This document shows positions 4,730-53,672 of a stretch of DNA of 64,000 nt, piece by piece (positions within the stretch are counted from its first letter, which is position 1; every line of letters begins with the position of its first letter). A program made the position numbers and the translations under genes. Origin of the DNA: Chitinophagales bacterium (lineage in GTDB: Bacteria; Bacteroidota; Bacteroidia; Chitinophagales; UBA8649); NCBI GenBank assembly GCA_049890075.1, contig JBMHCE010000001.1, forward strand, positions 22,633 to 86,632, written 5' to 3'. The notes under the pieces are model-generated. The model searched no databases, was not told where the DNA came from, and saw only the letters and a program-made list of their open reading frames with translations.

Positions 4730-6496
4730 ATGAAATGGACACGGCATGTAAGCGTATTGTTATTCATGATAGCATCAATTGCTCAAGGGCAGTTCAATGC
4801 CATTGAAGACGATACAGCCGATACAGGTAATGTTTTTGTTTATGAAAATCCGAAGGGATTTGGTAAGGTCCTAGACTTGGTGAATCTTCCTCAAAAAACC
4901 AATCGTTCTGTTTCTGTGCGTGAGGATTTTATTCCATTTGAAGGCATGGAGATTGCTTCTATTGAGGTGATTGTCTTTGATGAAAAGAATCAAGTCATAG
5001 AGGATACAACCCAGTGGGACCCTAATCTCCACTTTGTGTCTAAACCCAATCAGTATCGATGGAATGCTCAACTTGTGAAGCGACAGCTTATGTTCCGTGA
5101 AGGGGACTTGGTAGATGCGCAGTTAATGGTCGATAATGAGGTAGTTCTTCGTCAACGCACTATTTATCGTGATGCAGTTATTCAACTGCATATCATAGAT
5201 AACCATCGTGTGAAAGTTCATGTCCTAGTACAAAACAATCGTCATTGGCAGGTACTTTTTGAAGGAGGTCCTGGGTCAATTCAGCTGGGTTTTGGAGTCT
5301 ATGACATTTTCAGTATTCCTCAAACGATTCAGGTGGCGGCAAAAGGAAATTTCAATAAGTGGAATCCATATTCTGTCTTTCTTCATCATAGTTTGCGAAA
5401 TGTCTTTAAATCAGGATTGGACGTAAAGACGACAGTACTTCATGCGAATACCAGTCAAGAGTTTGAAAGTAAAGTCCAACGGAAGTTTTTAGCTTTCAAC
5501 ACGAAGTGGGCTTTTCAAGGAAAGGTCAGTTTTAACAAGTCCAAGTTAGTTGATCGCAGCTTTGAAGCACCCTATGATTTGGTATCAAACCGTCAAAGCC
5601 TATGGTTGGCGAGGTCATTTAGTGCCCGACACTTGGGTAATGCATTTTCATTATCGCGTTGGACGGTGGGTCTCCGCTATTTACGCAGAGGATACAGTCG
5701 AATTCCTGAAAGTCAGCCCTTTTATGAAAGTGAGCAGTTTGTCGCCTTAGGCGTTGGCTTAGTAAGTAGAGATTTTTATGAAGTGGAAGAGCTAGTCCAA
5801 TTCCGAGCCTATGATTACCTAACCAAGGGTTGGAATATCGCCTTAATCGGAGGGTATGAGATAAGTGAGTACCGAGGAAAGCGTTTGGGCTTGGCATTGA
5901 AAATGAATGCCTCTAAAGTTTATCCAAATTTGGGCCACTTAACGGCAGGTATTCATGCTAACCTCTACCTTAAGTCGGGCGCTTATGATCAAGCGTCTTT
6001 TCGGCTTTTTGACCAATACATTTCCAATCCCATCTCGTTGGGAAAGTTAACGTTTCGACAATTTGTAGCGACATCGGCTACAATGAGTATGAATCGAACA
6101 CCTAATGATTTCTTTAGTTTTAATTCAGTGCAGGGACTGGATGGAAGATTACTTAATTATTCAAGCAGCTTAGTGGCCAATTTCGAATCTGTTTTTTATA
6201 CGCCAATAACTTGGTGGAATTCAAGGGGAAATTTCTACGGATTTGCTGATTTTGCTTTGACGACATCGGGCAGTCCTCGTGATTTTGATAAGAGCATCTT
6301 ACACCACGGATATGGAGTAGGTATTCGTTTTCAGGCACGTAATCTAGGGTTGAATTTTGTCGATATAGCCTTTGGATTTTATCCAACCTATCAGATTGCG
6401 GACGCGCCATTTTTCAATTATCTTTTCTCAACTACTCCTCGCCTTTATGAGGTTGGCAGCTTGAGATCCCCGAGTTATTACAGTCCTGATATCTAG
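4730..6496 (+). CDS. outer-membrane protein, Omp85/BamA-family-like (POTRA-like N-terminal part plus beta-barrel)
   Basis: Signal peptide (MIASIAQGQ). A POTRA-like segment (LMFREGDLVDAQL...VKVHVLVQN) is followed by a C-terminal alternating-hydrophobic barrel ending in GYGVGIRFQ...IAFGFYP. Confidence 0.45.
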   Translation: MKWTRHVSVLLFMIASIAQGQFNAIEDDTADTGNVFVYENPKGFGKVLDLVNLPQKTNRSVSVREDFIPFEGMEIASIEVIVFDEKNQVIEDTTQWDPNLHFVSKPNQYRWNAQLVKRQLMFREGDLVDAQLMVDNEVVLRQRTIYRDAVIQLHIIDNHRVKVHVLVQNNRHWQVLFEGGPGSIQLGFGVYDIFSIPQTIQVAAKGNFNKWNPYSVFLHHSLRNVFKSGLDVKTTVLHANTSQEFESKVQRKFLAFNTKWAFQGKVSFNKSKLVDRSFEAPYDLVSNRQSLWLARSFSARHLGNAFSLSRWTVGLRYLRRGYSRIPESQPFYESEQFVALGVGLVSRDFYEVEELVQFRAYDYLTKGWNIALIGGYEISEYRGKRLGLALKMNASKVYPNLGHLTAGIHANLYLKSGAYDQASFRLFDQYISNPISLGKLTFRQFVATSATMSMNRTPNDFFSFNSVQGLDGRLLNYSSSLVANFESVFYTPITWWNSRGNFYGFADFALTTSGSPRDFDKSILHHGYGVGIRFQARNLGLNFVDIAFGFYPTYQIADAPFFNYLFSTTPRLYEVGSLRSPSYYSPDI

Positions 6497-13903: not shown

Positions 13904-14152
13904 TTACTCTACAGCAATTTGACCTTCTTGAATCATATTGCCTGTTACCTGGTCGATGGCGCGATAAAAGTAAATACCTGGCGTCCATGCGCTTACATTA
14001 ACACCTACAGTTGATGTTCTCGGATTAAAGGCCTGTTGAAGCTTTTGACTTCCTTTGCTATCATAAACTTCAATAGCTACGGCATCGAAGTCAGAATCCA
14101 TTAAGCCGAAAAAGAGTTCTTCATGGCTTGGATTAGGATACACTAAAAACTG
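13904..14152 (-). other. T9SS type-A C-terminal sorting domain-like segment of the 564-aa protein
   Basis: The last ~80 aa (NQFLVYPNPSHEELFFGL...VEVYDSKG...GIYFYRAIDQ...) follow the Por_Secre_tail pattern. Confidence 0.55.
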
Positions 14153-15598
14153 ATTGTTTGGTTGTTCAATAGGTTCGCCAATCGAGGTTGGATTACCCAT
14201 GTCAAGGCCACTGGTATCCTTTAGAAAATAGGTAGTGTACAGCTGCATTTCGTCGTCTGATGTAAGGCCAAACTCAACATCTTCGGGGCCGTCATTAATC
14301 CAAGTTGTTCGTGTGAGAAGAAAATCCCCATCGGTCATTGGTAGGAAGTTGTCAAAAAATCGAAAAGGTAGATGGGCATAATCGTAGTTTTCTACAGAAC
14401 AGCCGGGAATACCATTGGCACAACCTGCATCATATTGCTGATAGGTTTCAGTATCTAAAAAGGGCGAAGGCGTAACGTACATGTCAAAGTCCTCTCCATA
14501 TTTATGGGTGTGCCCTACCATTGCCCAGAAGAAGATCTCATCGTCACTACCTGCTCCTGCCGTGCTTAATAAAGTAGGGAGGGTCACCGGAAAGTCTATA
14601 ACAGTTGCCTGACCATCATTGGGAATATCGATATTTAAATTGAAGGCCATTGAAGAGTACATAATTTGCGTAGCAGTACCTGACGGCTGGGTTTCAAAAT
14701 TGATGTAGGCCTCACACTTCATTGGTTGATTGAGGTCGTAGTTGATGTAGTGGCTATTTAAATCAAACACCATGTCTTGCCAAAACTCAAAAGCTGTTCC
14801 GTCAGGTAATGTCAATGCATTGGTATATTGCTCGGTGGCTACAACGGAGAAACTTTCATTATCAATCCCTCTTAACCCGGCAGGAGTCGATTGTCCAAAG
14901 GTTGGATTGCCGTTAAAGTCAATGTATTTGTAGGTTATAAAGTGATGAGAATAGTCACCCATAGTTGTCGACACCTCAGTGACTTCAACATCCTCCGGCA
15001 GGTTCGTTTCATATTTTAAGAAATGCTCACGCTCGCCACCTGCTTCGAGGAAAAATGGTCCGAAATGAACTTGGAAACCATTTGCTGGCGGTGCTGGCGG
15101 ATTAGGAACACTTTCAATACCACCGTTTTGATAAAAATCATCAATCAATGTGGTATTCACCACATCTCCACCAAGAGGAGAACCGTAAAGAATCCACTGA
15201 CGGACTAACTCAATATCCTCGTCAGTCATACTTCCCCCGATGGGCATATCCGATCCTTCGGAGGCATCAAGAACTACATCGGGCGATAGACCATTATTGA
15301 TTTTTCGAAATAAGTAACTTCTGTAAGGGTCTCCGGGATAAATTAACTTATGCCCTTTGCTTGCTGCTTCTGAATTGTTTGGGTTGACATCATATAGATT
15401 ATTGTAGACGTCCTGAATCCTTGCATTCAAGTTCCCTCCGCTTCCCTCTAGATCAAGGCCACCTGCCTGGCTTGCACTTGAGTGACAATAGCCATTAGCA
15501 CAGTTGGTCTGTAAAACATCATAGACCTTTCTCGCTGTGCTTTGAGCACTTGTGTGAAAGGCTACAACCAGAATTAGAGATGAGAGAAGTAGACGCAT
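13904..15598 (-). CDS. secreted PHM/DBH-like copper monooxygenase-fold protein with an N-terminal PSCyt1-like CX4CH motif and a T9SS C-terminal sorting domain
   Basis: Signal peptide. C33-ANGY-C38-H39 is followed by GGLDL, PGDPYRSYL, DMP and WILYG. Putative copper ligands are H218-H219, H283, H363-T-H365-KYG and DDEM451QLYTTYF. The C-terminus (FLVYPNPS...IYFYRAID) is CTD-like. Confidence 0.6.
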   Translation of the reverse strand: MRLLLSSLILVVAFHTSAQSTARKVYDVLQTNCANGYCHSSASQAGGLDLEGSGGNLNARIQDVYNNLYDVNPNNSEAASKGHKLIYPGDPYRSYLFRKINNGLSPDVVLDASEGSDMPIGGSMTDEDIELVRQWILYGSPLGGDVVNTTLIDDFYQNGGIESVPNPPAPPANGFQVHFGPFFLEAGGEREHFLKYETNLPEDVEVTEVSTTMGDYSHHFITYKYIDFNGNPTFGQSTPAGLRGIDNESFSVVATEQYTNALTLPDGTAFEFWQDMVFDLNSHYINYDLNQPMKCEAYINFETQPSGTATQIMYSSMAFNLNIDIPNDGQATVIDFPVTLPTLLSTAGAGSDDEIFFWAMVGHTHKYGEDFDMYVTPSPFLDTETYQQYDAGCANGIPGCSVENYDYAHLPFRFFDNFLPMTDGDFLLTRTTWINDGPEDVEFGLTSDDEMQLYTTYFLKDTSGLDMGNPTSIGEPIEQPNNQFLVYPNPSHEELFFGLMDSDFDAVAIEVYDSKGSQKLQQAFNPRTSTVGVNVSAWTPGIYFYRAIDQVTGNMIQEGQIAVE

Positions 15599-43109: not shown

Positions 43110-44111
43110 TTATTTCCCGATAGAATTTAGATTTATTCTGTAGAACATAGAGATTTCCCCTGTCTCGACATTGATATTTTTTACTTCGACATAGGGATTC
43201 TCATCGTCAAGATAAACATCGAGTATAGGGGCATTGTGCAAGGTGACATCAGGTCCCTCCACTCGGTTGGGAGCTCTTCCTGGGCGTTCATTTTTGTTAA
43301 TACCTGCTGCCATGATTTCGTAGGTCTTATAGTCTACATTTCCAGGACTTTCTAATACCTCTACATAATGTTGATCTCCAGTCAAAAAAAGCACGGGAAC
43401 ATCTTGACTTTCAATGAGCCCCATCAAGCGTTTTCTACTTTTCCCCAGCCGCACCATGGCCTCCCATCGCATCGGTCTATTGATTAGAATTTGGTATCCG
43501 CAGGATATAAAACGAAGGTCTACATCATCTTGTCGTAGGGCTTGCACCAAAAACTCCCATTGGTTTTCTCCTAGCGCATCCGCATTTCTTCCTGGTTTAT
43601 CTCGGTTAAAGCGCCCATCTAACTGGATAAACTGGATGGTTTTTTCGTTAAACGTAAACTGTTTAGCATAGTACACACCATCCTGATTGCTTGGTATTTC
43701 TGCTTCGAGCTCCCAAAATGACCGATGAATGTTTTTGGATTTTTCTTTTAAACTGTACTCTTTGCCTGCATTGTTTAACCCATAATCATGATCATCCCAG
43801 GTCACTACAAATTGAGAGACTTCTTTTAGAGCAGAAAACCCCTCTTTTTCCCTAAGTATCTCTAATTGATCGATGATGTATTGCGGGTTATCCTTGGTGT
43901 CGGCGTAGACATTATCACCGATCCAAACGGTTACGTCAGGTTGAAGCACTTCAGCGATGTAGGGGAGAGAAGGGGCTGGAGCGTGTTGATTGTGGCATCC
44001 GATCATTGCTATTCGCGCATCGGCATTTCCCCTTTCGTGCTGGGCTTTAATCTCTATGATTGAAGTACAGGCAAACTGAAGTGTGAAAAAAAGCAGATAG
44101 AATAGTCTCAT
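43110..44111 (-). CDS. PhoD-like / calcineurin-like metallophosphoesterase (exported)
   Basis: Signal peptide, then GDNVYAD, WDDHDYG and LTGDQHY metal-ligand motifs. Confidence 0.65.
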   Translation of the reverse strand: MRLFYLLFFTLQFACTSIIEIKAQHERGNADARIAMIGCHNQHAPAPSLPYIAEVLQPDVTVWIGDNVYADTKDNPQYIIDQLEILREKEGFSALKEVSQFVVTWDDHDYGLNNAGKEYSLKEKSKNIHRSFWELEAEIPSNQDGVYYAKQFTFNEKTIQFIQLDGRFNRDKPGRNADALGENQWEFLVQALRQDDVDLRFISCGYQILINRPMRWEAMVRLGKSRKRLMGLIESQDVPVLFLTGDQHYVEVLESPGNVDYKTYEIMAAGINKNERPGRAPNRVEGPDVTLHNAPILDVYLDDENPYVEVKNINVETGEISMFYRINLNSIGK

Positions 44112-44129: not shown

Positions 44130-47100
44130 TTAAAAGGTTTGATTAAATCCAAAGACTAATCGAGGATAGATGTTTTGATTTCCAGTACCTGGATCGGAGA
44201 CCCAAAAAGGACAATCTATGCGAAAGGTAAACGGTTTTAGATTGTAGAGTTTAAAGAAGCGTTTCCATGTCAGGGCCAGACCTAATCCAGCATCAGCGTA
44301 GATTGCAGACCAGTTTCTTCCACGAGCCGTTGGATCACTATTGATTAGTCCCGCATCGGCAAAAAGGTATACGTTGGCCTCGTAGTTTCTTCGAAGTTTA
44401 CTGTTTTTTATGTTAATCAAACGATCAAAACTTAACTCGGACGAAACACTTAACCCCGACCGTCCCGAAACTAAGCTCTGTCCCGATTCATCCGTTACTA
44501 ATCGACCTGCATAACCTCTAAGATTCATGCCTCCAGCATAATGAAAGCCTGTAGTGGAGTTGTTTTGGTAAGGCCCGATTTCTTGTTGAGGATAGAATCC
44601 AACGCTTCGGACAAACTTGTTATCCATCATGGATTCGGGATTCCCACCTGCTAGGTATACGGCGCTTTCAGGCGGTGTTTTTCCAAAACCGAAGCGACTG
44701 TAAAGACGATTTTTCCAATCAAATTTTCCGATTTTCATATGATCAGTAAACGTCGCTTCGAGGTATTGGTAATTCCAGTCAGGCGTCATAGAAACCCTTC
44801 CTGATAGTTTGAGTTGGCTTTTGCCCGGCCGTGCCTTTCGGAAATCTTCGGAGGTATACTGCAGGTTAAGTCCTGCATTCCAGGCGCCACTGACCCACCA
44901 AGCACCTTGCTCTGGGTTTTGAAGGTAGGATAGGTCTTCTTCATTGGGCCTAATCATAGCAAAGCCTTCTAACCTGAGCGTTCCTTTTCCATGAAGCTCC
45001 TTTTGAATGCCAAGGCGTTGATCAATAAGCCCATCTAGGTATTTTGACTTGACATAGGCGGTTGCGCCGTCGATAAATTCATAAACTGGCGTTGCGTAAG
45101 AAAGTCTGTAGTTAATCCCTTGGTATGCTCTTCTGCTATTTAAGAATGCAGGGCCCCCTTGATAGGAACGCTGCAGGGTTGGCCAAGAAAGATTACCCCA
45201 GATTGTGAAATCAAAAAAGCGTTTTCGTCGCATATAGTTTCCTTCTACATGGAGTCCAAGCTTAAGTCCATCTACACCGTTCCACCATAGGTCGGGACGC
45301 CATTCCATAATGTAATGTTTACGGCTAGGGAAGTTATAGACGTGGCTGTTAAAGCGCCAAATAGTGTTTCTTTTTAGCCTGTTGTTAAAGGCATTGATGT
45401 CGGCCAAGCGGTTTGTTGTATCAATCGTTGCATTGGCGAGTTTATCCTCAAGTTCTACGGTAAAACTGTAGGTAGGGTGAAGCTTATCCCACCCGGTCCA
45501 CTTAGGAAGTATTGTGGCTTCTGTGGACTTTTCAAAATATTGGTTAGGAATGTGAAAATCATAGGTCGTACCCGATTGGTCCTTTAGTTGAAGATCTATC
45601 GGCATTTGCATCCTTCCATGACGCTCTAGGGTAATGGTGTAGGTGTTTTCGGCTGTTTCTTTTTTCGAAGAAATACTGTAGTCGATGCTTTTGTTGGTTT
45701 CAATCCACTGATCAAAGAACCAATTCAAATCAACGCCCGTGAAGTCAATGATGGAGTGTCGGAAGTCCTCGGGATAAGGGTGAGCATAGGACCACTGGTC
45801 AAAATAGTGTTGCATTGCCGCCAAAAACAAGGAATCGCCTAAAACATATTGAAGATTATAAAGCATCACCGCAGTCTTATAATAGACATGACCATATCCC
45901 CCGCCATGACGAAGTGCTCCATCAAATCCATCACTATGCGTATTCAATTGAGGGTCTTGTCCGAGGGTAGCGTCCATCATATATCCGATATATACCTCGC
46001 CTTCACGGGCCTCTACTGGCTCCTTAAATTTTCGGAGGTATGGTGTTGATGGTGTATTCGTTACATAGTTAACACCATCGATGGCTTCAAGGCCCCAAGC
46101 CGTTAGAAATTGGGTGAATCCTTCATCCATCATGGCCCGATAGGTCTCGTTATTGGCAACCATTCCATAGAACCAGTTATGCCCCACTTCGTGAACTAGA
46201 AGATCGCGATATCCAGGATCTTTGTCACCATCCAAGGTGAGCATTGGATACTCCATGCCATCGCGAGCATCGGCTACGATCATCTTTGGGTAACCGTACA
46301 TACCAATGTCCTCGGAAAATACCTGAATAATGGCTGCGGTGTATTCCGCTGCATTTTGCCATCGACTACTGTGTGGCTCTTGACAGAGGGCATAGGTTTT
46401 TACTCCTTGCCACTCCGATTCTCCTATTCGATAGTGAGGGTTTGCGGTGAAGGCAAAATCATGCACATTTTCCGCATAGTAATGCCACTGCTTGCGCTCG
46501 CCTTCAACATAGGGAGTAATGGTCGATGGCGCTTCGCCCCAAGGCTTGTCTTTGAAATTTTCAATATCAAGTTTTGCTCTGAGTTCTGCTGGTAATACTT
46601 CATCGCGGTTTTGTAAAAAACCGGTTGCTCCAACTACGTAGTTGGAAGGAAAATCCAAGGTAACATCAAAGGTTCCGAAGTCTCCATAAAATTCTCGACT
46701 GAGGTGCTGGTCAACATTCCATCCAAACTTCTCGTCATATACAGCAATTCTTGGATACCAATGAGCTCCGTTGAATTGAATGGCTCCGTAAGAGTTAAAG
46801 AGCTTCATTCGGCGACGACTGCTTCCAAAACCATAGAATGTTTGAAAATCAAAATGTAGGGTAATTCCATCATTGGGAAGCAATGGCTCATTGAGGTGCA
46901 CAAATAATATGGTATTATCCATTGAAGTATCTACAACATCTCCGTTAACTCGCATATTGCTTACAACCGTTCCGAGACCCATTTCCTCATAATCGCTGTA
47001 GATTGGATCGACGCCATTATTCTTTTGAAGATTGTCATAATATGCTCCTGGTTGAAAAGCGTTTTGGTAAAGATGAAATGCCACTGTGCTCAGAGTATCT

Positions 47101-47354
47101 GGTGAATTATTGGTGTACACTAATTCAGTTGTGGCCTCAATGAAATACCGTTTTTCGTCAATCCTCGCCGTCATGGTGTAATGCACATCCTGTTGCCAAT
47201 ACCCTGGTTTTATCGATTTGTTTTTCCAATAGTTAGGGTTTGATTCACTAGCAAATGAGTTCGGCCCAGCATTTGGATTATAATCCTGGCCAACGGAATA
47301 CTCAGTGGCGAAAAATGTAAAGGCGAGAAGGAAGTATTTATGTAAACAGCGCAT
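44130..47354 (-). CDS. M1-family zinc metallopeptidase fused to a C-terminal Omp85-type outer-membrane beta-barrel
   Basis: Signal peptide. GMEYP exopeptidase-type motif at aa 366-370, and H388-EVGH-x18-E411 (codons checked at 46179..46193). The C-terminal ~400 aa have a GGMNLRGY loop-6-like motif and a terminal ...LVFGFNQTF beta-signal. Confidence 0.7.
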   Translation of the reverse strand: MRCLHKYFLLAFTFFATEYSVGQDYNPNAGPNSFASESNPNYWKNKSIKPGYWQQDVHYTMTARIDEKRYFIEATTELVYTNNSPDTLSTVAFHLYQNAFQPGAYYDNLQKNNGVDPIYSDYEEMGLGTVVSNMRVNGDVVDTSMDNTILFVHLNEPLLPNDGITLHFDFQTFYGFGSSRRRMKLFNSYGAIQFNGAHWYPRIAVYDEKFGWNVDQHLSREFYGDFGTFDVTLDFPSNYVVGATGFLQNRDEVLPAELRAKLDIENFKDKPWGEAPSTITPYVEGERKQWHYYAENVHDFAFTANPHYRIGESEWQGVKTYALCQEPHSSRWQNAAEYTAAIIQVFSEDIGMYGYPKMIVADARDGMEYPMLTLDGDKDPGYRDLLVHEVGHNWFYGMVANNETYRAMMDEGFTQFLTAWGLEAIDGVNYVTNTPSTPYLRKFKEPVEAREGEVYIGYMMDATLGQDPQLNTHSDGFDGALRHGGGYGHVYYKTAVMLYNLQYVLGDSLFLAAMQHYFDQWSYAHPYPEDFRHSIIDFTGVDLNWFFDQWIETNKSIDYSISSKKETAENTYTITLERHGRMQMPIDLQLKDQSGTTYDFHIPNQYFEKSTEATILPKWTGWDKLHPTYSFTVELEDKLANATIDTTNRLADINAFNNRLKRNTIWRFNSHVYNFPSRKHYIMEWRPDLWWNGVDGLKLGLHVEGNYMRRKRFFDFTIWGNLSWPTLQRSYQGGPAFLNSRRAYQGINYRLSYATPVYEFIDGATAYVKSKYLDGLIDQRLGIQKELHGKGTLRLEGFAMIRPNEEDLSYLQNPEQGAWWVSGAWNAGLNLQYTSEDFRKARPGKSQLKLSGRVSMTPDWNYQYLEATFTDHMKIGKFDWKNRLYSRFGFGKTPPESAVYLAGGNPESMMDNKFVRSVGFYPQQEIGPYQNNSTTGFHYAGGMNLRGYAGRLVTDESGQSLVSGRSGLSVSSELSFDRLINIKNSKLRRNYEANVYLFADAGLINSDPTARGRNWSAIYADAGLGLALTWKRFFKLYNLKPFTFRIDCPFWVSDPGTGNQNIYPRLVFGFNQTF

Positions 47355-47391: not shown

Positions 47392-48525
47392 ATGCCAGAT
47401 TCACCAGAAAACAGATTGTATAGAATTCAACGGGCGATTGAATTACAGGCAGTGGAAGGTATTGGCCTTGTCTATGCGCGTCGGCTATGGGAGCATCTAG
47501 GTCCTTTAGAACACTGGAAAGAGGTTGATTTTACCATGGTACAACACAAACAAAGCCACACTTGGCACAACCATCTTATAAAGCTTGAGCGTCAAGGGTA
47601 TGCCAATCGCCAACTTGAAATACTCCATCAATACAAGTGGCAAGTAGTGTTAATCGATGATAAGGAGTATCCTCCGTATCTACGTCATTTGGTCGATGCT
47701 CCCTTGTTATTATTTGTCAAGGGCAATCCATTGCAACTTTTGCGCCAACACATCGCTATTGTGGGTACGAGGAAACCATCAAAGCAGGGTCTCTTAGTTT
47801 GTGAACAGATTGTGCATTCCATTGCCTCCTCAGAGTACAAGAATGGATGGAGTGTTGTCAGTGGTCTTGCGCGCGGCGTCGATGGACAGGCGCACAAAAC
47901 GGCCATCTCTGAGCTACTTTGTACCCTTGCCATTTTAGGGAATCCACCACAGCATATCTATCCCCCTGAGCACTTAGGTTTAGCTGAAGACATTGTATCT
48001 AATGAAGGACTTCTCGTAACAGAGTTTCTACCTGATGTAATCTCTCGGCCTTATCACTTTGCGCAAAGAAACCGTGTGATTGGGGGTATGGCTCGATTGA
48101 CTATTGTTATTGAGAGTGCGCTAAAGGGTGGCGCGCTTATCACAGCGCGAAGAGCCTATGAGGAAAATCGCGATGTTTTTGCTGTGCCTGGTCGGTGCAG
48201 TGATACAAGCAGTCTTGGATGCAATCGCTTAATTGCTCAAAACATAGCTCAACTTATCGAAGATCCCAAAACATTTTGGTCGTCCTATGTATCGTGTATA
48301 CAATATGGTAAGACAGAAGGGATGTCATCATTAAGTGTTGAAGCCCAAGCGGTATTAGATTATATTGCTCAATGTGGCAAGGTAAGCCTAGAGGCTCTAG
48401 TTAACATGTTTGGCAATCAATTTCCTGTATGCGAAACCTTATTGGAGTTGGAAACATCAAGAATTGTATCTTTCCAAAAAGGCGGATATTATTCACTCTA
48501 TGGGCCAAAAACGTCATTCACGTAA
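47392..48525 (+). CDS. dprA: DNA-processing protein DprA
   Basis: Rossmann-like core with GTRKPS, SGLARGVDGQAH and ESALKGGALITA. Confidence 0.85.
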   Translation: MPDSPENRLYRIQRAIELQAVEGIGLVYARRLWEHLGPLEHWKEVDFTMVQHKQSHTWHNHLIKLERQGYANRQLEILHQYKWQVVLIDDKEYPPYLRHLVDAPLLLFVKGNPLQLLRQHIAIVGTRKPSKQGLLVCEQIVHSIASSEYKNGWSVVSGLARGVDGQAHKTAISELLCTLAILGNPPQHIYPPEHLGLAEDIVSNEGLLVTEFLPDVISRPYHFAQRNRVIGGMARLTIVIESALKGGALITARRAYEENRDVFAVPGRCSDTSSLGCNRLIAQNIAQLIEDPKTFWSSYVSCIQYGKTEGMSSLSVEAQAVLDYIAQCGKVSLEALVNMFGNQFPVCETLLELETSRIVSFQKGGYYSLYGPKTSFT

Positions 48526-49627
48526 TCTTCTTTTGCTACCCTTGTCGCTTTTCTATGCGATTGGCATAGCGCTGCGTGATTTAGCTTTTCGTTGGGGAAT
48601 CAACTCAATTATCGATTATGAAATGCCCATTATAGGAGTTGGCAATCTAACGGTTGGAGGCAGTGGTAAAACACCGCATACCTTTTACCTATTGCATCAC
48701 CTCACTCAAAAAGGTCTTCCTACGGCTTATCTGAGTCGTGGCTATGGCAGAAAGAGTACAGGATATCGTGATGTTAGTTTACAATCTTCTGTAGAAAATA
48801 GCGGTGATGAAGCCTTACTAGCCAAGCATAGATTTCCGCACACCAGGGTGGTTGTTTCCGAAAGCAGAAGCCAAGCTATACCTGATGTGTACCATGGAAG
48901 GCCTGTACAACAAGTGACAGTATTGGATGACGCGTTTCAGCATAGAAGTATTAAACCGGGGCTTCAGGTTTTACTCACTCGATATGATATGCTGTTTTGT
49001 GAGGACTATCTGTTACCGTATGGCAGATTAAGGGAGTTTCGCAGTGGATACCACAGGGCGGATGTACTGGTAGTTTCGAAGTGCCCTGAAGGCATTGGAC
49101 TCGAAAAGCAAAATGAAATCCGTGACCGTTTACGACCTCTGTCCTATCAATATGTCTGTTTTACCACAGTAGACTACAACATCCCATATCTGGTAACCGC
49201 TCATAGTGCGGAAGCTCTATCTCAGTGTCCTAAACCTCTCTTGGCGATAGCAGGCTTAGCAGACAACTCCGATTTTTTTGAATACATGCAATCGATGCAT
49301 CCTTCGGTTAGTTGTCGGGGATTTCAAGACCATCATGCATATTCTACCTATGATATTGAGTCTATTCTAGAGACAAAACGTCACCTTGAAGCCAAAGGAA
49401 GTGAGGCCATTTATGAAATTCATACAACAGAAAAGGATTTGATGCGCCTTAAAGATCACATACACCGCTTAGAGAAAAATGGTGTTCGGCTGATTGTCCA
49501 TCCGGTGGAAGTTCGAGATGTCACCCTTAAAGGTCCTTTACTTCTTGAGCTTGTTGACCATTATACAGATTATGCGGTACAGCAGGCAACGAATGCATTT
49601 CCTGAGTCACCATCGCCCGATGCATAG
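48500..49627 (+). CDS. lpxK: tetraacyldisaccharide 4'-kinase
   Basis: P-loop VGNLTVGGSGKTP. The internal Met (MGQKR) is chosen as start, giving a 26-nt overlap with dprA. Confidence 0.85.
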   Translation: MGQKRHSRNLLLLPLSLFYAIGIALRDLAFRWGINSIIDYEMPIIGVGNLTVGGSGKTPHTFYLLHHLTQKGLPTAYLSRGYGRKSTGYRDVSLQSSVENSGDEALLAKHRFPHTRVVVSESRSQAIPDVYHGRPVQQVTVLDDAFQHRSIKPGLQVLLTRYDMLFCEDYLLPYGRLREFRSGYHRADVLVVSKCPEGIGLEKQNEIRDRLRPLSYQYVCFTTVDYNIPYLVTAHSAEALSQCPKPLLAIAGLADNSDFFEYMQSMHPSVSCRGFQDHHAYSTYDIESILETKRHLEAKGSEAIYEIHTTEKDLMRLKDHIHRLEKNGVRLIVHPVEVRDVTLKGPLLLELVDHYTDYAVQQATNAFPESPSPDA

Positions 49628-49680: not shown

Positions 49681-50505
49681 ATGGAATTGTATACTCAGAT
49701 TGAAGAAACAAGACAGTGGCTTGAAGAAAATATTCAGGTCAAGCCTAAATGGGGTATTATCCTCGGCAGTGGGCTTGGTGGGCTAGTTCGTTTAATCGAA
49801 AATGCTCAGCGTATTGAGTATAAGGATATCCCACATTTTAAGAGTTCTTCAGTAAAGGGACATCAAGGGGCCCTCATTTTTGGTCAACTTGAAGGAGTGG
49901 ATGTAGTCTTAATGGCTGGTAGACTTCACTATTATGAAGGGCATTCCATGAAGGAGGTTACCTATCCCGTTCGCGTAATGAAAGCACTTGGTTGTCATTC
50001 TGTTGCCGTTTCAAATGCTGCAGGTGGAGTACAAGAGGGAATGCGAGTTGGAGATCTAATGATCATTAATGATCATATCAATGCTACACCCGAAAGTCCT
50101 TTACGCGGAGTGAATGACGATAGACTTGGACCTCGGTTTCCAGAAATGATCGAACCTTATGACAAGGAATATATTAAGACCGTACATAGCATTGCTACAA
50201 AGGAAACGATTGATGTAAAAGAAGGAGTCTATTATGGCTTATCAGGCCCAACGTTCGAAACGCCAGCAGAATATCGAATGATCTATCGATTGGGTGGGGA
50301 CGCAGTGGGTATGTCTACGGTGCCAGAAGTCGTTGTTGCCCGACATGGGGGTATGCGTGTCTTCGGGTTGTCGGTTATAACAGATATCGGATATCCTCCT
50401 GAAAATGTCGAACACGTTGATCATGAATTCGTTTTAAAAGCTGCCCAGGAAGCTGGGTATAGGGTGGAAACACTCTTTCGAGGTTTGATCCGTGCTCATG
50501 GTTAA
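49681..50505 (+). CDS. purine-nucleoside phosphorylase (trimeric PNP type)
   Basis: ILGSGLG, GRLHYYEG, GPTFETPAE, and GMSTVPE. Confidence 0.9.
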   Translation: MELYTQIEETRQWLEENIQVKPKWGIILGSGLGGLVRLIENAQRIEYKDIPHFKSSSVKGHQGALIFGQLEGVDVVLMAGRLHYYEGHSMKEVTYPVRVMKALGCHSVAVSNAAGGVQEGMRVGDLMIINDHINATPESPLRGVNDDRLGPRFPEMIEPYDKEYIKTVHSIATKETIDVKEGVYYGLSGPTFETPAEYRMIYRLGGDAVGMSTVPEVVVARHGGMRVFGLSVITDIGYPPENVEHVDHEFVLKAAQEAGYRVETLFRGLIRAHG

Positions 50506-52363
50506 ACGGTATGGTAACCATTTATTACTGATTGCAAGTTTAATATGTTGCAGTACGTTGCATGGCCAACGAGAAGAAGGCTTAGAAACGGATAGCTTCT
50601 ACTATGGCTCGGCGCCTTGGAAGGTGCTTTCCATCGACACGTCATTATCGAGCATTTACAACTTTGACTTTGCGTCGGCTTTTAATAGCTTCTTCGTTGA
50701 TTTGGGCAATACAGGAAGTCCACTTCAGAACATGACGATGCAACATCAGCCTCCTATACACAACCTTGAATGGCAAAGTCATGCTCATGGCCTATCCCCC
50801 TATCGGATGCCACTAGATTCTATTCAGTGGTATAAAACAAAAAAACCCTTTTCTCAAATTGCCTATGCGATAGGAGCTGAGCGTCAAAATGTATTCAGTG
50901 CACAACACAGCCAACGGGTTAACCAAGGCTTGGACTATGGACTTTCCTTTTACCGTATGTCATCCATAGGATATTACCCTGAGGAAGAAACACGCAATGC
51001 GGCCTTTTCGCTATATAATCGCTGGGCCTCCAATAGTGGCCGCTATTCCGGAAATCTCACGATGAACTTCCATCGACTTCGTAGAAAGGCGAATGGAGGA
51101 ATACAAGAGGATTTTATTGGAAATGATAGCCTAAGATTAAGTTCACCAAGCCTCTACACTCCTGTCCTAGATGGTGCGATTCAAAGTGATCGAGGATTTA
51201 ATGTCTGTCTAGAAAGTCATCTAAACTTTGGGTTTGAAACCTTCCGACAAGTAAATGATTCGCTTCAGGTCTCTGCGTTTCAAGTACAAAGCCTCTTTGG
51301 GCATAAGCTCGCTTTTTCTACCTGGTCTAATCGTTTTGACGATCCGCAGAGTGGCGATGATTCTCTATTCTATGCATCGTATGCATGGCTTGATGCAGAT
51401 ACTTTTCGCTTTAGCTATCAATCCAAAGTACTGGAGAACAGTTTGTTTTGGCGTCGTCATCTGACCCATAGAGGCATGTTGGAATTTGAAGCAGGTCACC
51501 GTTATATTCCATGGAGTCTTCAAGGTGTTGACCAGCAGTTTCATGAGAGCTTTACGCAAATCCGATACATTCTTCAAAAAAACCAATGGTTATGGGAGAA
51601 CAAGGCACATTTGATTTTTTCTGGCTATCAGAGAGGTAGCCAGCACCTTGTGTCAGCACTCCATCATGAAACGTCGTTGGGCTTTGTACATATTGAGGCA
51701 TCTTTTCTTCGTAATGTCATGAATCCCGTTGATCGCCTTGCGGACCCTACGTACACTGGAGGTTTCCAAGTGAATTCGCGGCCCATGACCTTTGAGGGTA
51801 GATTAACCTATGGTCTTGGTAAGAACTTAGTCCTTTCCGGTCATTATATTCTTGATCGGAATCCGGTTTTGGTAGATAGCAATAGGCTTACCTTTCAGTT
51901 TAATGGATCAGTCCACCGTCTTGCTGGAAGCCTTTCCTACAGTCTAAGTGCATTGAACGGTTGGTTAAATTGGGATGCTTTAATGGGTGCACAGATGACG
52001 TCGGAAGATGTATATGTTATGCCAACGTTTTATACCCGCCACAGAATCTATGCGCAACAAACGCTTTTTCAATCAAGGCTTATATTAAATCTAGGCGCTC
52101 AGGTAACTTGGAACACAGCCTTTCCCCGTATGACCTATGACCCTTATCTATCCCGTTTTGGGTTACCAGTAGATAGGGAAGCAAGTGCCATGCCCCCAAG
52201 ACTTGAAGCCTTTCTTGGAATCAAAGTCAGCCACATGAGGGTTTTTGTAAGAGCACAATACCTCAATCAGTACTTAGGGCCTACAGGATACTATGGGATT
52301 GCTCAATATCCTGCACGACCACGAAACTACACGGGAGGACTTGTTTGGCGGTTCTTTGAGTAA
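50492..52363 (+). CDS. putative porin-family outer-membrane protein
   Basis: Signal peptide, a long alternating beta-strand-like pattern, and a C-terminus ...GGLVWRFFE. The family assignment is tentative. Confidence 0.4.
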   Translation: MLMVKRYGNHLLLIASLICCSTLHGQREEGLETDSFYYGSAPWKVLSIDTSLSSIYNFDFASAFNSFFVDLGNTGSPLQNMTMQHQPPIHNLEWQSHAHGLSPYRMPLDSIQWYKTKKPFSQIAYAIGAERQNVFSAQHSQRVNQGLDYGLSFYRMSSIGYYPEEETRNAAFSLYNRWASNSGRYSGNLTMNFHRLRRKANGGIQEDFIGNDSLRLSSPSLYTPVLDGAIQSDRGFNVCLESHLNFGFETFRQVNDSLQVSAFQVQSLFGHKLAFSTWSNRFDDPQSGDDSLFYASYAWLDADTFRFSYQSKVLENSLFWRRHLTHRGMLEFEAGHRYIPWSLQGVDQQFHESFTQIRYILQKNQWLWENKAHLIFSGYQRGSQHLVSALHHETSLGFVHIEASFLRNVMNPVDRLADPTYTGGFQVNSRPMTFEGRLTYGLGKNLVLSGHYILDRNPVLVDSNRLTFQFNGSVHRLAGSLSYSLSALNGWLNWDALMGAQMTSEDVYVMPTFYTRHRIYAQQTLFQSRLILNLGAQVTWNTAFPRMTYDPYLSRFGLPVDREASAMPPRLEAFLGIKVSHMRVFVRAQYLNQYLGPTGYYGIAQYPARPRNYTGGLVWRFFE

Positions 52364-52388: not shown

Positions 52389-53672
52389 TTACGTCTTCTG
52401 CTCTTTTTTCTCGGCAGCAGGAAAGAGCACATTGTTAAGAATTAGACGATAACCTGGAGAATTGGGATGATTTTTTAACTCAGTTACAGGATCGCCTACA
52501 TAGTGTCGGTAGTCTTCCGGATCATGCCCGCCATACCATGACCACATCCCTAAGCCAAACTTGCCATGAATATACCGGGCTTCTCCAAAGGCATCGTTTT
52601 CTGCAAGAATGGTCACATTCGATTTTAGTCGAGATTTCCGAAAGGCTGTGGTCTGTCCCATAAATCCTTTAACTATACGCGTATGGCATTGGGTTAGCAT
52701 GGTCGGAATTGGATCCCATTTGGCTGAAAAATTAAAGAGTGAAAAATAATCAACCTCTTGAGGCACTTGGCGTTGGAAGTTAGCATCTATATCAGAGTAC
52801 TCGTACTCCATAGGGTTCGTGCGAAGATTAAAATCTTTAAAGGCTAGTGTCTTGGAAAAATCAAGTTGGTTTTGAGCGTTGGGAGCCATGGGGTCGCCAT
52901 CAAACATGGATTCACAGATATCGGTGTTTTGCGCGGCTAAGGCAATGTCATAACTATCGGTTGCCGAGCACATAGCAAACATATATCCTCCTCCGGCCAT
53001 AAAGGCAGAAATCTTTTTGACTACGGCGAGCTTAAGCTGAGACACTTTTCCGTGCCCATGGTTATGGGCTGAGGCTTCCATTTCAGCGACCTCTTCTTTG
53101 TACCAGGCCTGATTTCTGTAGGATGCATAAAATCGACCATACTGTCCTGTAAAGTCTTCGTGATGAAGATGCAGCCAATCATAAAGTAGTAATCGCTCAT
53201 CTAAAATCTCATCGTCATACAGTACGTCATAGGGGATCTCGGCGTATGTGAGGACGAGTGTAACGGCATCATCCCAGGGTTTTTTTGATTTGGGTGAATA
53301 CACAGCTACTCTCGGAGCCTTTTCAAGTTTGACTTTTTCTGCATTAACAGAAGGGCTAGCGATTTCTCGCAGGATGTTATCATAACTAGCTGTTGAGACC
53401 ACTTCGAAATCAACTCCACGAATACGGCATTCAAGTTGTAAGGATTGATTGTCAGGAAAAGCAAAGCTTCCTCCACGATAGTTTAGCAGCCAATCTCCTG
53501 TATATCCTTGTGCTAACGCCCAGTACGTTATACCATAAGCTTTTAGGTGATCATTTTGGTCTTCATCCATTGGAATAAGCAAGGTTGCTCCTTGGATCTG
53601 AACAGCGAGAAGCACAAATATTCCAGCTATTTTCAAAAATCTAGGCACCATAGGAAAAGATTGTCTTTGCAT
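52389..53672 (-). CDS. conserved hypothetical exported protein (possibly class-I glutamine-amidotransferase-like fold)
   Basis: Signal peptide. RVAVYSP...PWDDAVTLVL...LLYDWLHLHHEDF and a FAMCSATD nucleophile-elbow-like segment. The fold call is inference only. Confidence 0.35.
   Translation of the reverse strand: MQRQSFPMVPRFLKIAGIFVLLAVQIQGATLLIPMDEDQNDHLKAYGITYWALAQGYTGDWLLNYRGGSFAFPDNQSLQLECRIRGVDFEVVSTASYDNILREIASPSVNAEKVKLEKAPRVAVYSPKSKKPWDDAVTLVLTYAEIPYDVLYDDEILDERLLLYDWLHLHHEDFTGQYGRFYASYRNQAWYKEEVAEMEASAHNHGHGKVSQLKLAVVKKISAFMAGGGYMFAMCSATDSYDIALAAQNTDICESMFDGDPMAPNAQNQLDFSKTLAFKDFNLRTNPMEYEYSDIDANFQRQVPQEVDYFSLFNFSAKWDPIPTMLTQCHTRIVKGFMGQTTAFRKSRLKSNVTILAENDAFGEARYIHGKFGLGMWSWYGGHDPEDYRHYVGDPVTELKNHPNSPGYRLILNNVLFPAAEKKEQKT

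What the first reader, a model, noticed from the sequence alone, without database searches (positions are those of the whole stretch)
44130..47354. Complete M1 aminopeptidase-type domain fused to an Omp85-type barrel (type Vd-like architecture with a peptidase passenger)
**N-terminal half (seen)**
- A signal peptide, then a GMEYP motif (GxMEN-type exopeptidase motif variant) and HEVGH-x18-E. This is the full gluzincin M1 catalytic set.

**C-terminal ~400 residues (seen)**
- Alternating beta-strand pattern.
- A GGMNLRGY motif, like the conserved (V/I)RG(F/Y) loop-6 motif of Omp85/BamA/TpsB barrels.
- An aromatic C-terminal beta-signal (...LVFGFNQTF).

**Established comparison**
- Patatin-Omp85 fusions such as PlpD define type Vd secretion, where an N-terminal enzyme is tethered to or exported through an Omp85-like barrel.

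**Inference**
- This protein may display or release an M1 peptidase at the cell surface by the same logic.
- That would be an unusual passenger class and an alternative to T9SS for surface proteolysis in a Bacteroidota organism.
Basis: partly seen in the sequence, partly recalled or inferred. Interest (0 to 1): 0.6.

Follow-up and report, generated by a model that had tools for sequence, protein, structure and literature searches.

The report
M1 aminopeptidase fused to Omp85 barrel
This is one real, widely conserved Bacteroidota gene that joins a zinc aminopeptidase to a divergent BamA/TamA-like outer-membrane barrel with no POTRA domain; the fusion is apparently undescribed, and the enzyme more likely sits under the outer membrane than on the cell surface.

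Summary
Window 44130-47354 (-) is one 1074-aa ORF with a Sec/SPI signal peptide, GMEYP, HEVGH-x18-E, GGMNLRGY and a C-terminal Phe. Residues 23-644 are a divergent M1 aminopeptidase (PF01433 E 8.6e-13; Foldseek to IRAP/ERAP/PepN E ~1e-21). The helical M1 domain IV is absent and a barrel takes its place. AlphaFold2 predicts 16 amphipathic strands. The 50 listed best PDB matches of the barrel model are all BamA or TamA. Both Omp85 signature motifs are conserved in their expected places: LRGY in the loop between strands 11 and 12, and FxDxG on strand 13. The window's own barrel matches no Pfam model, but the barrel of a 55%-identical relative passes the PF01103 cut-off. There is no POTRA domain. 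The fusion is not an artefact: 373 species genomes encode a relative, and the barrel was found only with this peptidase. The "type Vd passenger" reading is only partly supported. The patatin and POTRA features are missing, and the type Vd prototype PlpD is now reported to keep its enzyme in the periplasm. The peptidase joins strand 1 on the short-turn side, so a periplasmic, membrane-anchored peptidase is the likelier reading. Topology was not tested.

The parts
44130..47354 (-). Complete gene for the 1074-aa M1-peptidase/Omp85-barrel fusion protein, stop codon included
   Evidence: Single ORF. Full-length relatives at 46-93% identity in related genomes, mostly matched over nearly the whole query.
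47289..47354 (-). Sec/SPI signal peptide, aa 1-22, with predicted cleavage SVG|Q23 (Gln at +1, Bacteroidetes Q-rule); no lipobox
   Evidence: helix 5-20 in the model; PMC5837995.
46380..47192 (-). M1 N-terminal beta domain (domain I), aa ~55-325
   Evidence: AF2 strands. Foldseek alignment of ~650 columns to IRAP/ERAP/PepN.
45690..46379 (-). M1 thermolysin-like catalytic domain (domain II), aa ~326-555
   Evidence: PF01433 match at aa 384-550, E 8.6e-13, 48.8 bits against a cut-off of 27.7.
46245..46259 (-). GMEYP, a variant of the GxMEN exopeptidase motif (Asn replaced by Tyr), aa 366-370
   Evidence: Invariant in the 32-member alignment and present in 154 of 168 members.
46122..46193 (-). 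Zinc-binding and catalytic motif HEVGH-x18-E (His388, Glu389, His392, Glu411)
   Evidence: Invariant and present in 163 of 168 members.
45882..45884 (-). Tyr491 in V-Y-Y-K-T, the candidate transition-state-stabilising Tyr of M1 enzymes (the Y-x-K-G position)
   Evidence: Invariant. VY[YFH]K[TG] found in 107 of the 163 members that carry HEXXH-x18-E. Its assignment as the catalytic Tyr is inferred from knowledge of the M1 family.
45423..45680 (-). Small all-beta domain, aa 559-644, most likely the M1 domain III beta-sandwich; not a POTRA domain
   Evidence: Six strands and no helix. Within the span of the Foldseek match to M1 enzymes. No PF07244 hit.
45315..45422 (-). Conserved linker, aa 645-680 (consensus IDPSxRLADINxLNN...), joining the peptidase to barrel strand 1
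   Evidence: I644, D645, D652 and N658 are invariant. pLDDT is ~88-90 in the full-length model, but in the barrel-only model it is below 50 for aa 640-661 and 56-68 for aa 660-679, so the linker is modelled confidently only when the peptidase is present.
44133..45314 (-). 16-stranded Omp85-superfamily beta-barrel, aa 681-1074
   Evidence: 16 strands in two AF2 models. The 50 listed best Foldseek PDB matches are all BamA/TamA, E 4e-10 to 9e-8. Every strand alternates in hydrophobicity. PF01103 reaches 29.8 bits against a cut-off of 24 in relative P0010.
44460..44684 (-). Long loop between strands 11 and 12, aa 891-965, equivalent to Omp85 loop L6
   Evidence: It is the most conserved long loop (0.67, and 0.82 at the tip).
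44511..44534 (-). GGMNLRGY: the L6-tip Omp85 signature motif (V/I)RG(Y/F), here L-R946-G-Y
   Evidence: Motif definition from PMC4490367.
44349..44363 (-). F998-A-D1000-A-G1002: the Omp85 strand-13 signature motif (F/G)xDxG in its BamA/TamA-type FxDxG form
   Evidence: Lies in predicted strand 13, aa 991-1006. Present in 154 of 168 members. Aligned to BamA FWDMG in a local alignment that is not itself significant. Motif definition.
44133..44159 (-). C-terminal beta-signal ...LVFGFNQTF with terminal Phe
   Evidence: F1074 is invariant, and 159 of 168 members end in Phe.

Best explanation
The gene encodes one Sec-exported outer-membrane protein with two modules. Residues 23-644 form a divergent but catalytically complete M1 zinc aminopeptidase with domains I to III. 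Residues 681-1074 form a divergent, POTRA-less, 16-stranded Omp85-superfamily barrel of the closed BamA/TamA kind, which replaces the helical M1 domain IV. Shown here: the architecture, its conservation, the catalytic set, and the Omp85 fold and signature motifs. Inferred: the barrel is inserted by the BAM machinery through its C-terminal Phe beta-signal and then acts mainly as a membrane anchor, and perhaps as a cap over the active site. It would hold the peptidase at the periplasmic face of the outer membrane. There the enzyme would remove N-terminal residues from oligopeptides that have crossed the outer membrane, as part of the peptide-based nutrition common in aquatic Bacteroidota.
For: One ORF. 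The M1 identity rests on PF01433, the Foldseek match to IRAP/ERAP/PepN at E ~1e-21 over ~650 columns, and conserved HEXXH-x18-E, GMEYP and Tyr491. The barrel identity rests on several lines. Two AF2 models predict 16 strands, and all of them alternate in hydrophobicity. The 50 listed best PDB matches are all BamA/TamA. LRGY lies in the loop between strands 11 and 12, and FxDxG lies on strand 13, with invariant Gly residues on strand 14. PF01103 passes its cut-off in relative P0010 and matches weakly in P0014. The fusion is genuine: 373 species genomes encode a relative and more than 7,800 database proteins match, and the barrel profile finds only this architecture or fragments of it. The periplasmic placement rests on four points. 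First, the long loops (25, 24, 75, 12 and 14 aa) share a side with L6, while the turns on the strand-1 N-terminal side are short (3, 7, 3, 4, 2, 15, 11 aa). Second, the FxDxG form marks closed insertase-type barrels rather than wide TpsB pores. Third, the enzyme domain of PlpD, the only studied enzyme-Omp85 fusion, is periplasmic. Fourth, the organism uses T9SS sorting tags for other exported proteins, and this protein has none.
Against: The window's own barrel matches no Pfam model. The barrel profile finds no PDB chain by sequence. The profile comparison with E. coli BamA is not significant (E 0.044, probability 1.2%). Foldseek TM-scores are moderate (0.40-0.56), and L6 is modelled with low confidence. 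Extracellular-side loops are on average slightly more conserved than the periplasmic turns; this may be normal for Omp85 barrels, but it is also what a surface-docked enzyme would give. No peptide transporter is a conserved neighbour. Activity, substrate and location are all untested.
Confidence: 0.55

Rival explanations
1. Surface display or release. The barrel would export its own N-terminal peptidase, leaving the conserved linker in the pore. This would give a T9SS-independent cell-surface aminopeptidase.
For: It is an enzyme-Omp85 fusion, like the architecture originally called type Vd. The 36-residue linker is highly conserved, and its last 12 residues before strand 1 are coil, long enough to span a membrane if extended. 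Extracellular-side loops are relatively well conserved. An aminopeptidase passenger exists in a type Va autotransporter (PMC3426542, listed).
Against: The PlpD enzyme domain was shown to be periplasmic, and export of a folded domain through a closed Omp85 barrel was argued to be energetically unfavourable. Here the cargo would be a three-domain zinc enzyme of roughly 620 residues. The strand-13 motif is the closed BamA/TamA form in 154 members and the TpsB form in only 2. There is no POTRA domain and no TpsA-like beta-helical passenger. The enzyme joins the barrel on the short-turn side.
Confidence: 0.2
2. The barrel is not a passive anchor. Either it is a peptide conduit that feeds a peptidase docked beneath it, or the protein acts in outer-membrane protein biogenesis or quality control, with the peptidase trimming stalled or misfolded clients, loosely like BepA working with BAM.
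For: The Omp85 lid-lock motifs, which are functionally important in BamA and FhaC, are kept under strong selection, and L6 is more conserved than the strands. The barrel never occurs without this peptidase. The pTM of 0.79 and the context-dependent confidence of the linker suggest a fixed arrangement of the two modules. Heinz and Lithgow raised periplasmic quality control for another enzyme-Omp85 class.
Against: There is no POTRA domain to bind client proteins. M1 enzymes are exopeptidases that need free N-termini, which suits them poorly to degrading proteins. BamA/TamA-type barrels are closed to the outside. No gene for a BAM, TAM or transporter component recurs nearby.
Confidence: 0.13
3. 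The C-terminal domain is a 16-stranded outer-membrane barrel unrelated to Omp85, and the resemblance to it is convergent or an artefact of the model.
For: The window's barrel has no PF01103 hit. The profile finds no PDB chain by sequence. The comparison with BamA is not significant. Only 568 representatives match the barrel profile in 1.84 billion proteins, and the 150 listed are all this family. TM-scores are 0.40-0.56.
Against: The barrel of relative P0010 passes the PF01103 cut-off colinearly, aligning to model positions 196-323 of 325. Both signature motifs are conserved in the correct loop and strand. None of the 50 listed best structural matches is a porin or other barrel type.
Confidence: 0.07
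4. The two halves are separate genes joined by a sequencing or assembly error.
For: None found.
Against: The ORF is continuous. Most of the 80 listed genome loci, from many different studies, match nearly the full length of the query. The best 120 database hits are nearly all ~1060-1100 aa. The shorter hits inspected are N-terminally truncated copies of the same protein, and all but one still carry M1 motifs.
Confidence: 0.01

Closest known systems
PlpD/FplA patatin-like Omp85 proteins (PL-Omp85, formerly 'type Vd secretion')
   Same: A single polypeptide with an N-terminal hydrolase and a C-terminal 16-stranded Omp85 barrel, made as one Sec-exported outer-membrane protein. The barrel is closer to the BamA/TamA type than to TpsB.
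   Different: The enzyme here is a three-domain M1 zinc aminopeptidase of about 620 residues, not a 31-kDa patatin-like phospholipase. There is no POTRA domain between enzyme and barrel. The family was found only in Bacteroidota. Whether it dimerises like PlpD is unknown. The PlpD enzyme domain is periplasmic, so 'type Vd secretion' is itself in doubt as a model.
BamA and TamA (Omp85 insertases)
   Same: They are the best structural matches. They share 16 strands, a long L6 carrying (V/I)RG(Y/F), FxDxG on strand 13, conserved Gly on strand 14 and a C-terminal aromatic residue.
   Different: BamA has five POTRA domains and TamA has three; this protein has none. The sequences are so diverged that the window's barrel fails PF01103 and a direct profile comparison. 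A peptidase occupies the periplasmic N-terminus.
'Metallo' and 'noNterm' Omp85 subfamilies of Heinz and Lithgow 2014
   Same: The 'Metallo' group joins a metal-dependent hydrolase domain to an Omp85 barrel and has no characterised topology. The 'noNterm' group consists of Omp85 barrels with no N-terminal extension and so no POTRA domain.
   Different: The 'Metallo' domain is PF00149, not M1 (PF01433), and that group is conserved only at genus level, whereas this family spans several Bacteroidota orders. No M1 fusion appears in that survey (0 occurrences of 'peptidase' or 'aminopeptidase').
Four-domain M1 aminopeptidases (PepN, ERAP1/2, IRAP)
   Same: Domains I to III, HEXXH-x18-E, a GxMEN-type motif and a candidate catalytic Tyr.
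   Different: Identity is only 10-12% in the structural alignments. The exopeptidase motif reads GMEYP. The helical domain IV that encloses the substrate cavity is missing and is replaced by a membrane barrel. The protein is exported rather than cytoplasmic or anchored by a transmembrane helix.
AaaA, a type Va autotransporter aminopeptidase of Pseudomonas aeruginosa
   Same: An aminopeptidase attached to an outer-membrane barrel in one polypeptide (PMC3426542, title and abstract listed).
   Different: AaaA is described as a classical autotransporter. From general knowledge, such proteins have a 12-stranded barrel and a surface-exposed passenger. The barrel here has 16 strands and is of the Omp85 type.

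Membership tests
Peptidase family M1 (gluzincin aminopeptidases) | HEXXH-x18-E zinc-binding and catalytic motif | tested here: met
   H388-E-V-G-H392 followed by E411. Invariant in 32 sequences and present in 163 of 168 members.
Peptidase family M1 (gluzincin aminopeptidases) | Match to the Peptidase_M1 profile (PF01433) above its curated cut-off | tested here: met
   48.8 bits against a cut-off of 27.7, E 8.6e-13, aa 384-550. All 32 aligned members match.
Peptidase family M1 (gluzincin aminopeptidases) | GxMEN exopeptidase motif that binds the substrate N-terminus | tested here: inconclusive
   The motif is present as D-G-M-E-Y-P. Gly, Met and Glu are kept but Asn is replaced by an invariant Tyr. 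Whether exopeptidase specificity is kept needs an assay.
Peptidase family M1 (gluzincin aminopeptidases) | M1 fold: N-terminal beta domain plus thermolysin-like catalytic domain | tested here: met
   Foldseek match of the full model to IRAP/ERAP/PepN, E ~1e-21 over ~650 columns.
Peptidase family M1 (gluzincin aminopeptidases) | C-terminal helical domain that caps the active site (domain IV of PepN/ERAP); typical of the family rather than strictly defining | tested here: not met
   No helical domain follows aa 555; a beta-sandwich and the barrel follow instead.
Omp85 superfamily | C-terminal 16-stranded transmembrane beta-barrel | tested here: met
   This rests on prediction only. Two AF2 models predict 16 strands, the family alignment shows alternating hydrophobicity in each, and the 50 listed best PDB matches are all BamA/TamA.
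Omp85 superfamily | (V/I)RG(Y/F) signature motif at the tip of loop L6, between strands 11 and 12 | tested here: met
   N-L-R946-G-Y948 lies in the 75-residue loop between predicted strands 11 and 12. R946 is invariant and the family reads mostly (L/M/V)RG(Y/F). Motif definition.
Omp85 superfamily | (F/G)xDxG signature motif on strand 13 | tested here: met
   F998-A-D1000-A-G1002 lies in predicted strand 13. Present in 154 of 168 members. Aligned to BamA F-W-D-M-G, though in a local alignment that is not itself significant.
Omp85 superfamily | Match to the Omp85 profile (PF01103) above its curated cut-off | tested here: inconclusive
   The window's protein gives no hit even at E <= 10. The barrel of relative P0010 (55% identical full-length) scores 29.8 bits against a cut-off of 24, E 5.5e-07, and P0014 scores E 0.0012. 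Homology is therefore supported only through relatives.
Omp85 superfamily | [quoted passage not shown] | tested here: not met
   No PF07244 hit in the window protein or in 32 relatives. No beta-alpha-alpha-beta-beta unit lies between aa 555 and 680. POTRA-less 'noNterm' Omp85 proteins are recognised in the literature.
Type Vd secretion / PL-Omp85 (PlpD-like) | N-terminal patatin-like phospholipase domain | tested here: not met
   Only PF01433 is found.
Type Vd secretion / PL-Omp85 (PlpD-like) | A single POTRA domain between enzyme and barrel | tested here: not met
Type Vd secretion / PL-Omp85 (PlpD-like) | Translocation of the enzyme domain across the outer membrane | not testable with these tools
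   This needs topology experiments. For the prototype PlpD the claim has been overturned, and its enzyme domain is periplasmic.
Type IX secretion cargo | C-terminal sorting domain (Por_Secre_tail or a related CTD) | tested here: not met
   The C-terminus is the barrel and no CTD hit was found. A CTD protein does occur elsewhere in the window, at 13904-15598.

The most novel reading that the evidence does not exclude
The barrel is an active partner of the enzyme rather than an anchor. In one version it exports its own ~70-kDa globular zinc peptidase to the cell surface, which would be a POTRA-less, T9SS-independent, type V-like route in Bacteroidota. In another it couples the passage of peptides across the outer membrane directly to their hydrolysis by the docked enzyme. 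Either version would give the Omp85 scaffold a function beyond protein insertion and two-partner secretion.
Probability: 0.2. Interest if true: 0.8.

Novelty: new variant of a known kind. Interest (0 to 1): 0.55.

Why it matters
Omp85 proteins are best known as the machines that insert or translocate outer-membrane proteins. Enzyme-Omp85 fusions are a small and poorly understood class, and the only studied example, PlpD, was reinterpreted in 2024. This family adds a second, very different enzyme to that scaffold, lacks any POTRA domain, and is conserved across hundreds of aquatic Bacteroidota species. Public databases name it only as an 'M1 family metallopeptidase', so its membrane barrel goes unrecorded. 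It offers a natural test of whether Omp85 barrels have been reused as plain membrane anchors for periplasmic enzymes. It may also account for some of the cell-associated aminopeptidase activity of marine and freshwater Bacteroidota. That last point is my inference and was not tested.

Tried and rejected
- **Pfam and NCBIfam on the window protein:** scans of the whole protein and of its C-terminal half found no Omp85 or POTRA match.
- **Pfam on 32 full-length relatives:** no PF01103 at E <= 1. The match appeared only when barrel-only sequences were scanned.
- **Sequence searches of PDB chains:** the whole protein, the family profile and the barrel profile returned only M1 enzymes or nothing.
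- **Profile comparison of the barrel family with E. coli BamA:** not significant.
- **Alternative architectures for the barrel:** none found. The shorter hits inspected are truncated copies of the same protein, and P0065 is the same protein with an insertion in the small beta domain.
- **Conserved gene partners:** the window's neighbours are conserved only in five close genomes. Elsewhere only two genes that look like NadC and YihY (by eye, not scanned) recur upstream.
- **Promoter and terminator scan:** uninformative.
- **Literature searches for an M1-Omp85 fusion:** nothing found.
- **Assembly artefact:** rejected.

Full report
**1. Checking the observation**

Window 44130-47354 holds one uninterrupted minus-strand ORF of 1074 aa.
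- GMEYP at residue 366.
- HEVGH at 388, with Glu411 exactly 18 residues after His392.
- GGMNLRGY at 941.
- The C-terminus ...LVFGFNQTF.

The N-terminus (MRCLHKYFLLAFTFFATEYSVG|QDYNP) is a Sec/SPI signal peptide. It has small residues at -1 and -3 and Gln at +1. Relatives have clear A-x-A|Q sites, and there is no lipobox. This fits the Bacteroidetes Q-rule (PMC5837995).

These features are family invariants, not chance matches.

**2. The N-terminal module is an M1 peptidase**

- Pfam gives Peptidase_M1 (PF01433) at aa 384-550, E 8.6e-13, above its cut-off. NCBIfam gives only weak PepN and LTA4H matches.
- The full-length AlphaFold2 model (pLDDT 79, pTM 0.79) superposes on IRAP, ERAP1/2 and PepN at E ~1e-21 over ~650 columns, but with only 10-12% identity.
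- So residues ~55-644 are M1 domains I to III: an N-terminal beta domain, the catalytic domain and a small beta-sandwich.
- The catalytic set is under selection. HEXXH-x18-E occurs in 163 of 168 full-length members and GMEYP in 154. Tyr491, in a V-Y-Y-K-T context, is invariant in the 32-member alignment.
- The exopeptidase motif is a variant: the Asn of GxMEN is an invariant Tyr.
- The helical domain IV, which closes the substrate cavity in PepN and ERAP, is absent. The barrel occupies its place in the chain.

**3. The C-terminal module is a barrel**

The window's own C-terminal half matches nothing in Pfam, even at E <= 10. The family barrel profile finds no PDB chain by sequence. Five other lines of evidence point to a divergent Omp85 barrel:

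- **Strand count.** The full-length and barrel-only AF2 models both predict 16 long strands. Each strand alternates in hydrophobicity across the family.
- **Fold.** The barrel-only model's 50 listed best Foldseek PDB matches are all BamA or TamA, with E 4e-10 to 9e-8 and TM 0.40-0.56. No porin or other barrel type appears among them.
- **Signature motifs.** The Omp85 family has two: (V/I)RG(Y/F) at the tip of L6, and (F/G)xDxG on strand 13 (PMC4490367). Here N-L-R946-G-Y948 lies in the 75-residue loop between predicted strands 11 and 12. F998-A-D1000-A-G1002 lies in predicted strand 13. R946, F998 and D1000 are invariant, and FxDxG occurs in 154 of 168 members.
- **Loop conservation.** L6 is the most conserved long loop, reaching 0.82 around the motif.
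- **Profile match through relatives.** The barrel of relative P0010 (55% identical over the full length) passes the PF01103 cut-off: 29.8 bits against 24, E 5.5e-07. The alignment is colinear, covering model positions 196-323 of 325. P0014 gives E 0.0012.

The direct profile comparison with E. coli BamA is not significant (E 0.044, probability 1.2%). It does align YLFADAG...DAGxG...PLTIRFDxPF with BamA residues 733-796, placing FxDxG on FWDMG.

I conclude that this is a highly diverged member of the Omp85 superfamily. Its motifs are of the BamA/TamA type: FxDxG, with invariant Gly1023 and Gly1025 on strand 14.

**4. There is no POTRA domain**

The window protein has no PF07244 hit, nor do the 32 relatives scanned. 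Residues 559-644 form six strands with no helix. They lie within the span of the structural match to M1 enzymes, so they are most likely M1 domain III.

A conserved 36-residue linker (aa 645-680, consensus IDPSxRLADINxLNN) joins the two modules. It is modelled confidently only when the peptidase is present: pLDDT is ~88-90 in the full-length model, against 42-68 in the barrel-only model.

**5. The fusion is real and the family is uniform**

- More than 7,800 database proteins match. The best 120 are nearly all ~1060-1100 aa, cover nearly the whole query, and are named at most "M1 family metallopeptidase".
- 373 species-representative genomes encode a relative. Most of the 80 listed loci match nearly the full length of the query.
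- The closest genomes (92-93% identity) are MAGs labelled Saprospirales, Chitinophagales or Bacteroidota. The rest are mostly Flavobacteriales, Chitinophagales and unclassified Bacteroidia.
- The barrel profile retrieves only 568 representatives among 1.84 billion proteins. All 150 listed fit this architecture or fragments of it; I inspected nine.
- P0065 is the same protein with an insertion in domain III.
- So the barrel occurs only with this peptidase. It evolves faster than the enzyme: about 38% identity against 59% in one comparison.

**6. Genomic context**

- The window's neighbours are a PhoD-like phosphatase 18 bp downstream on the same strand, SSB, DprA, LpxK, a purine nucleoside phosphorylase and a Porin_10 protein.
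- This arrangement is kept only in the five closest genomes.
- In about half of the 80 loci, two genes that look like NadC and YihY (judged by eye, not scanned against a family library) lie upstream. No transporter, TamB-like or TPS-type partner recurs.
- The gene therefore appears to act alone.

**7. How it most likely works**

*Shown:* an exported protein with a catalytically intact M1 module tethered to an Omp85-type barrel.

*Inferred:*
- The C-terminal Phe beta-signal directs insertion by BAM.
- The long loops (25, 24, 75, 12 and 14 residues) lie on the same side as L6. The turns on the side where strand 1 begins are short (3, 7, 3, 4, 2, 15 and 11 residues). By the usual outer-membrane protein rule, the peptidase joins the barrel at the periplasmic face.
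- Reaching the surface would require threading a three-domain zinc enzyme of about 620 residues through a barrel whose motifs mark the closed BamA/TamA type, not the wide TpsB type.
- The only experimentally studied enzyme-Omp85 fusion, PlpD, was long called the type Vd prototype. It has now been shown to keep its enzyme domain exclusively in the periplasm, and its authors argue that later export of a folded domain is unfavourable (PMC11116518).
- This organism also uses T9SS sorting tags on another protein in the window, and this protein has none.

I therefore favour a periplasmic, outer-membrane-anchored aminopeptidase that trims imported oligopeptides. The barrel would serve as the anchor and possibly as a substitute for domain IV.

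*Caveats:*
- I could not inspect the model coordinates.
- L6 is poorly modelled.
- Extracellular-side loops are on average slightly more conserved than the periplasmic turns.
- The linker is long enough, in principle, to span a pore.

**8. Comparison with known systems**

The protein works most like PL-Omp85 proteins (PlpD, FplA), as an enzyme tethered to an Omp85 barrel. It is not a member of that family, because it has neither a patatin domain nor a POTRA domain.

- Structurally the barrel is closest to BamA and TamA.
- In lacking POTRA it resembles the "noNterm" Omp85 proteins.
- In carrying a metal-dependent hydrolase it parallels the "Metallo" (PF00149) subfamily of Heinz and Lithgow 2014, whose topology is also unknown. 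That survey lists no M1 fusion.
- No paper in the searchable library describes an M1-Omp85 protein.

**9. Verdict**

- The architectural interpretation is supported, with two corrections: the Omp85 barrel is divergent, and there is no POTRA domain.
- The secretion or surface-display inference is weakly supported and less likely than periplasmic retention.
- Novelty: a new variant of a known kind, the enzyme-Omp85 fusions.
- Interest is moderate. The family is widespread, its barrel is unannotated, and it bears directly on how the Omp85 scaffold has been reused. Its function and topology remain untested.

Noticed in passing
window 13904-15598 (-): A 564-aa ORF ends in a T9SS C-terminal sorting domain (Por_Secre_tail, E 2.3e-08), and the rest of the protein has no Pfam match at E <= 1e-05. 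It shows that the organism uses T9SS for secreted or surface proteins.
   Followed up: partly
window 43110-44111 (-): A 333-aa protein with a hydrophobic, signal-peptide-like N-terminus and a marginal PhoD-like phosphatase match (27.7 bits against a cut-off of 27) starts 18 bp after the M1-barrel stop on the same strand, so the two are probably co-transcribed. The pairing is kept only in the closest genomes (4 of 80 loci).
   Followed up: partly
window 47392-48525 (+) and 48410-49627 (+): The DprA ORF starts only 37 bp from the divergent M1-barrel start, which leaves very little room for promoters. The LpxK ORF, as listed from a TTG, overlaps the end of DprA by 116 bp, and its Pfam match begins at residue 40, so its true start is probably further downstream.
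   Followed up: no
window 50492-52363 (+): A 623-aa putative outer-membrane porin (Porin_10, E 1.9e-52) lies about 3 kb from the M1-barrel gene. It is syntenic only in the five closest genomes.
   Followed up: partly
L006-L080, within about 3.5 kb upstream of the M1-barrel gene: In 43 and 41 of the 80 related loci, two genes that look like a NadC-type phosphoribosyltransferase and a YihY/BrkB-type membrane protein lie upstream on the same strand. The names are my reading of the sequences and were not checked against a family library. The arrangement is absent from the window and has no obvious functional link.
   Followed up: partly
window 44133-45314 (-), barrel loops and turns: Unusually for an outer-membrane protein, the predicted extracellular-side loops (mean conservation about 0.60; L1 0.72, L3 0.98, L6 0.67) are slightly more conserved than the periplasmic turns (about 0.49). 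L6 is nonetheless modelled with low confidence (pLDDT 42-57).
   Followed up: partly
window 47190-47288 (-), aa 23-55: The mature N-terminus carries a strongly conserved stretch, NPxYWKNKxPxxGYWQQDVHY (N39, Y42, W43, N45, Y52, W53, Q54, Q55 and D56 invariant), ahead of M1 domain I. Its role is unknown.
   Followed up: no
window 4730-6496 (+) and 52389-53672 (-): Two sizeable ORFs (588 and 427 aa) have no Pfam match at E <= 1e-05.
   Followed up: no
P0010, full length versus barrel only: The PF01103 match of relative P0010 (E 5.5e-07 on the barrel alone) did not appear when the full-length protein was scanned at E <= 1. I suspect a HMMER filter effect but did not test this. If so, routine annotation would miss the barrel in this family.
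   Followed up: partly
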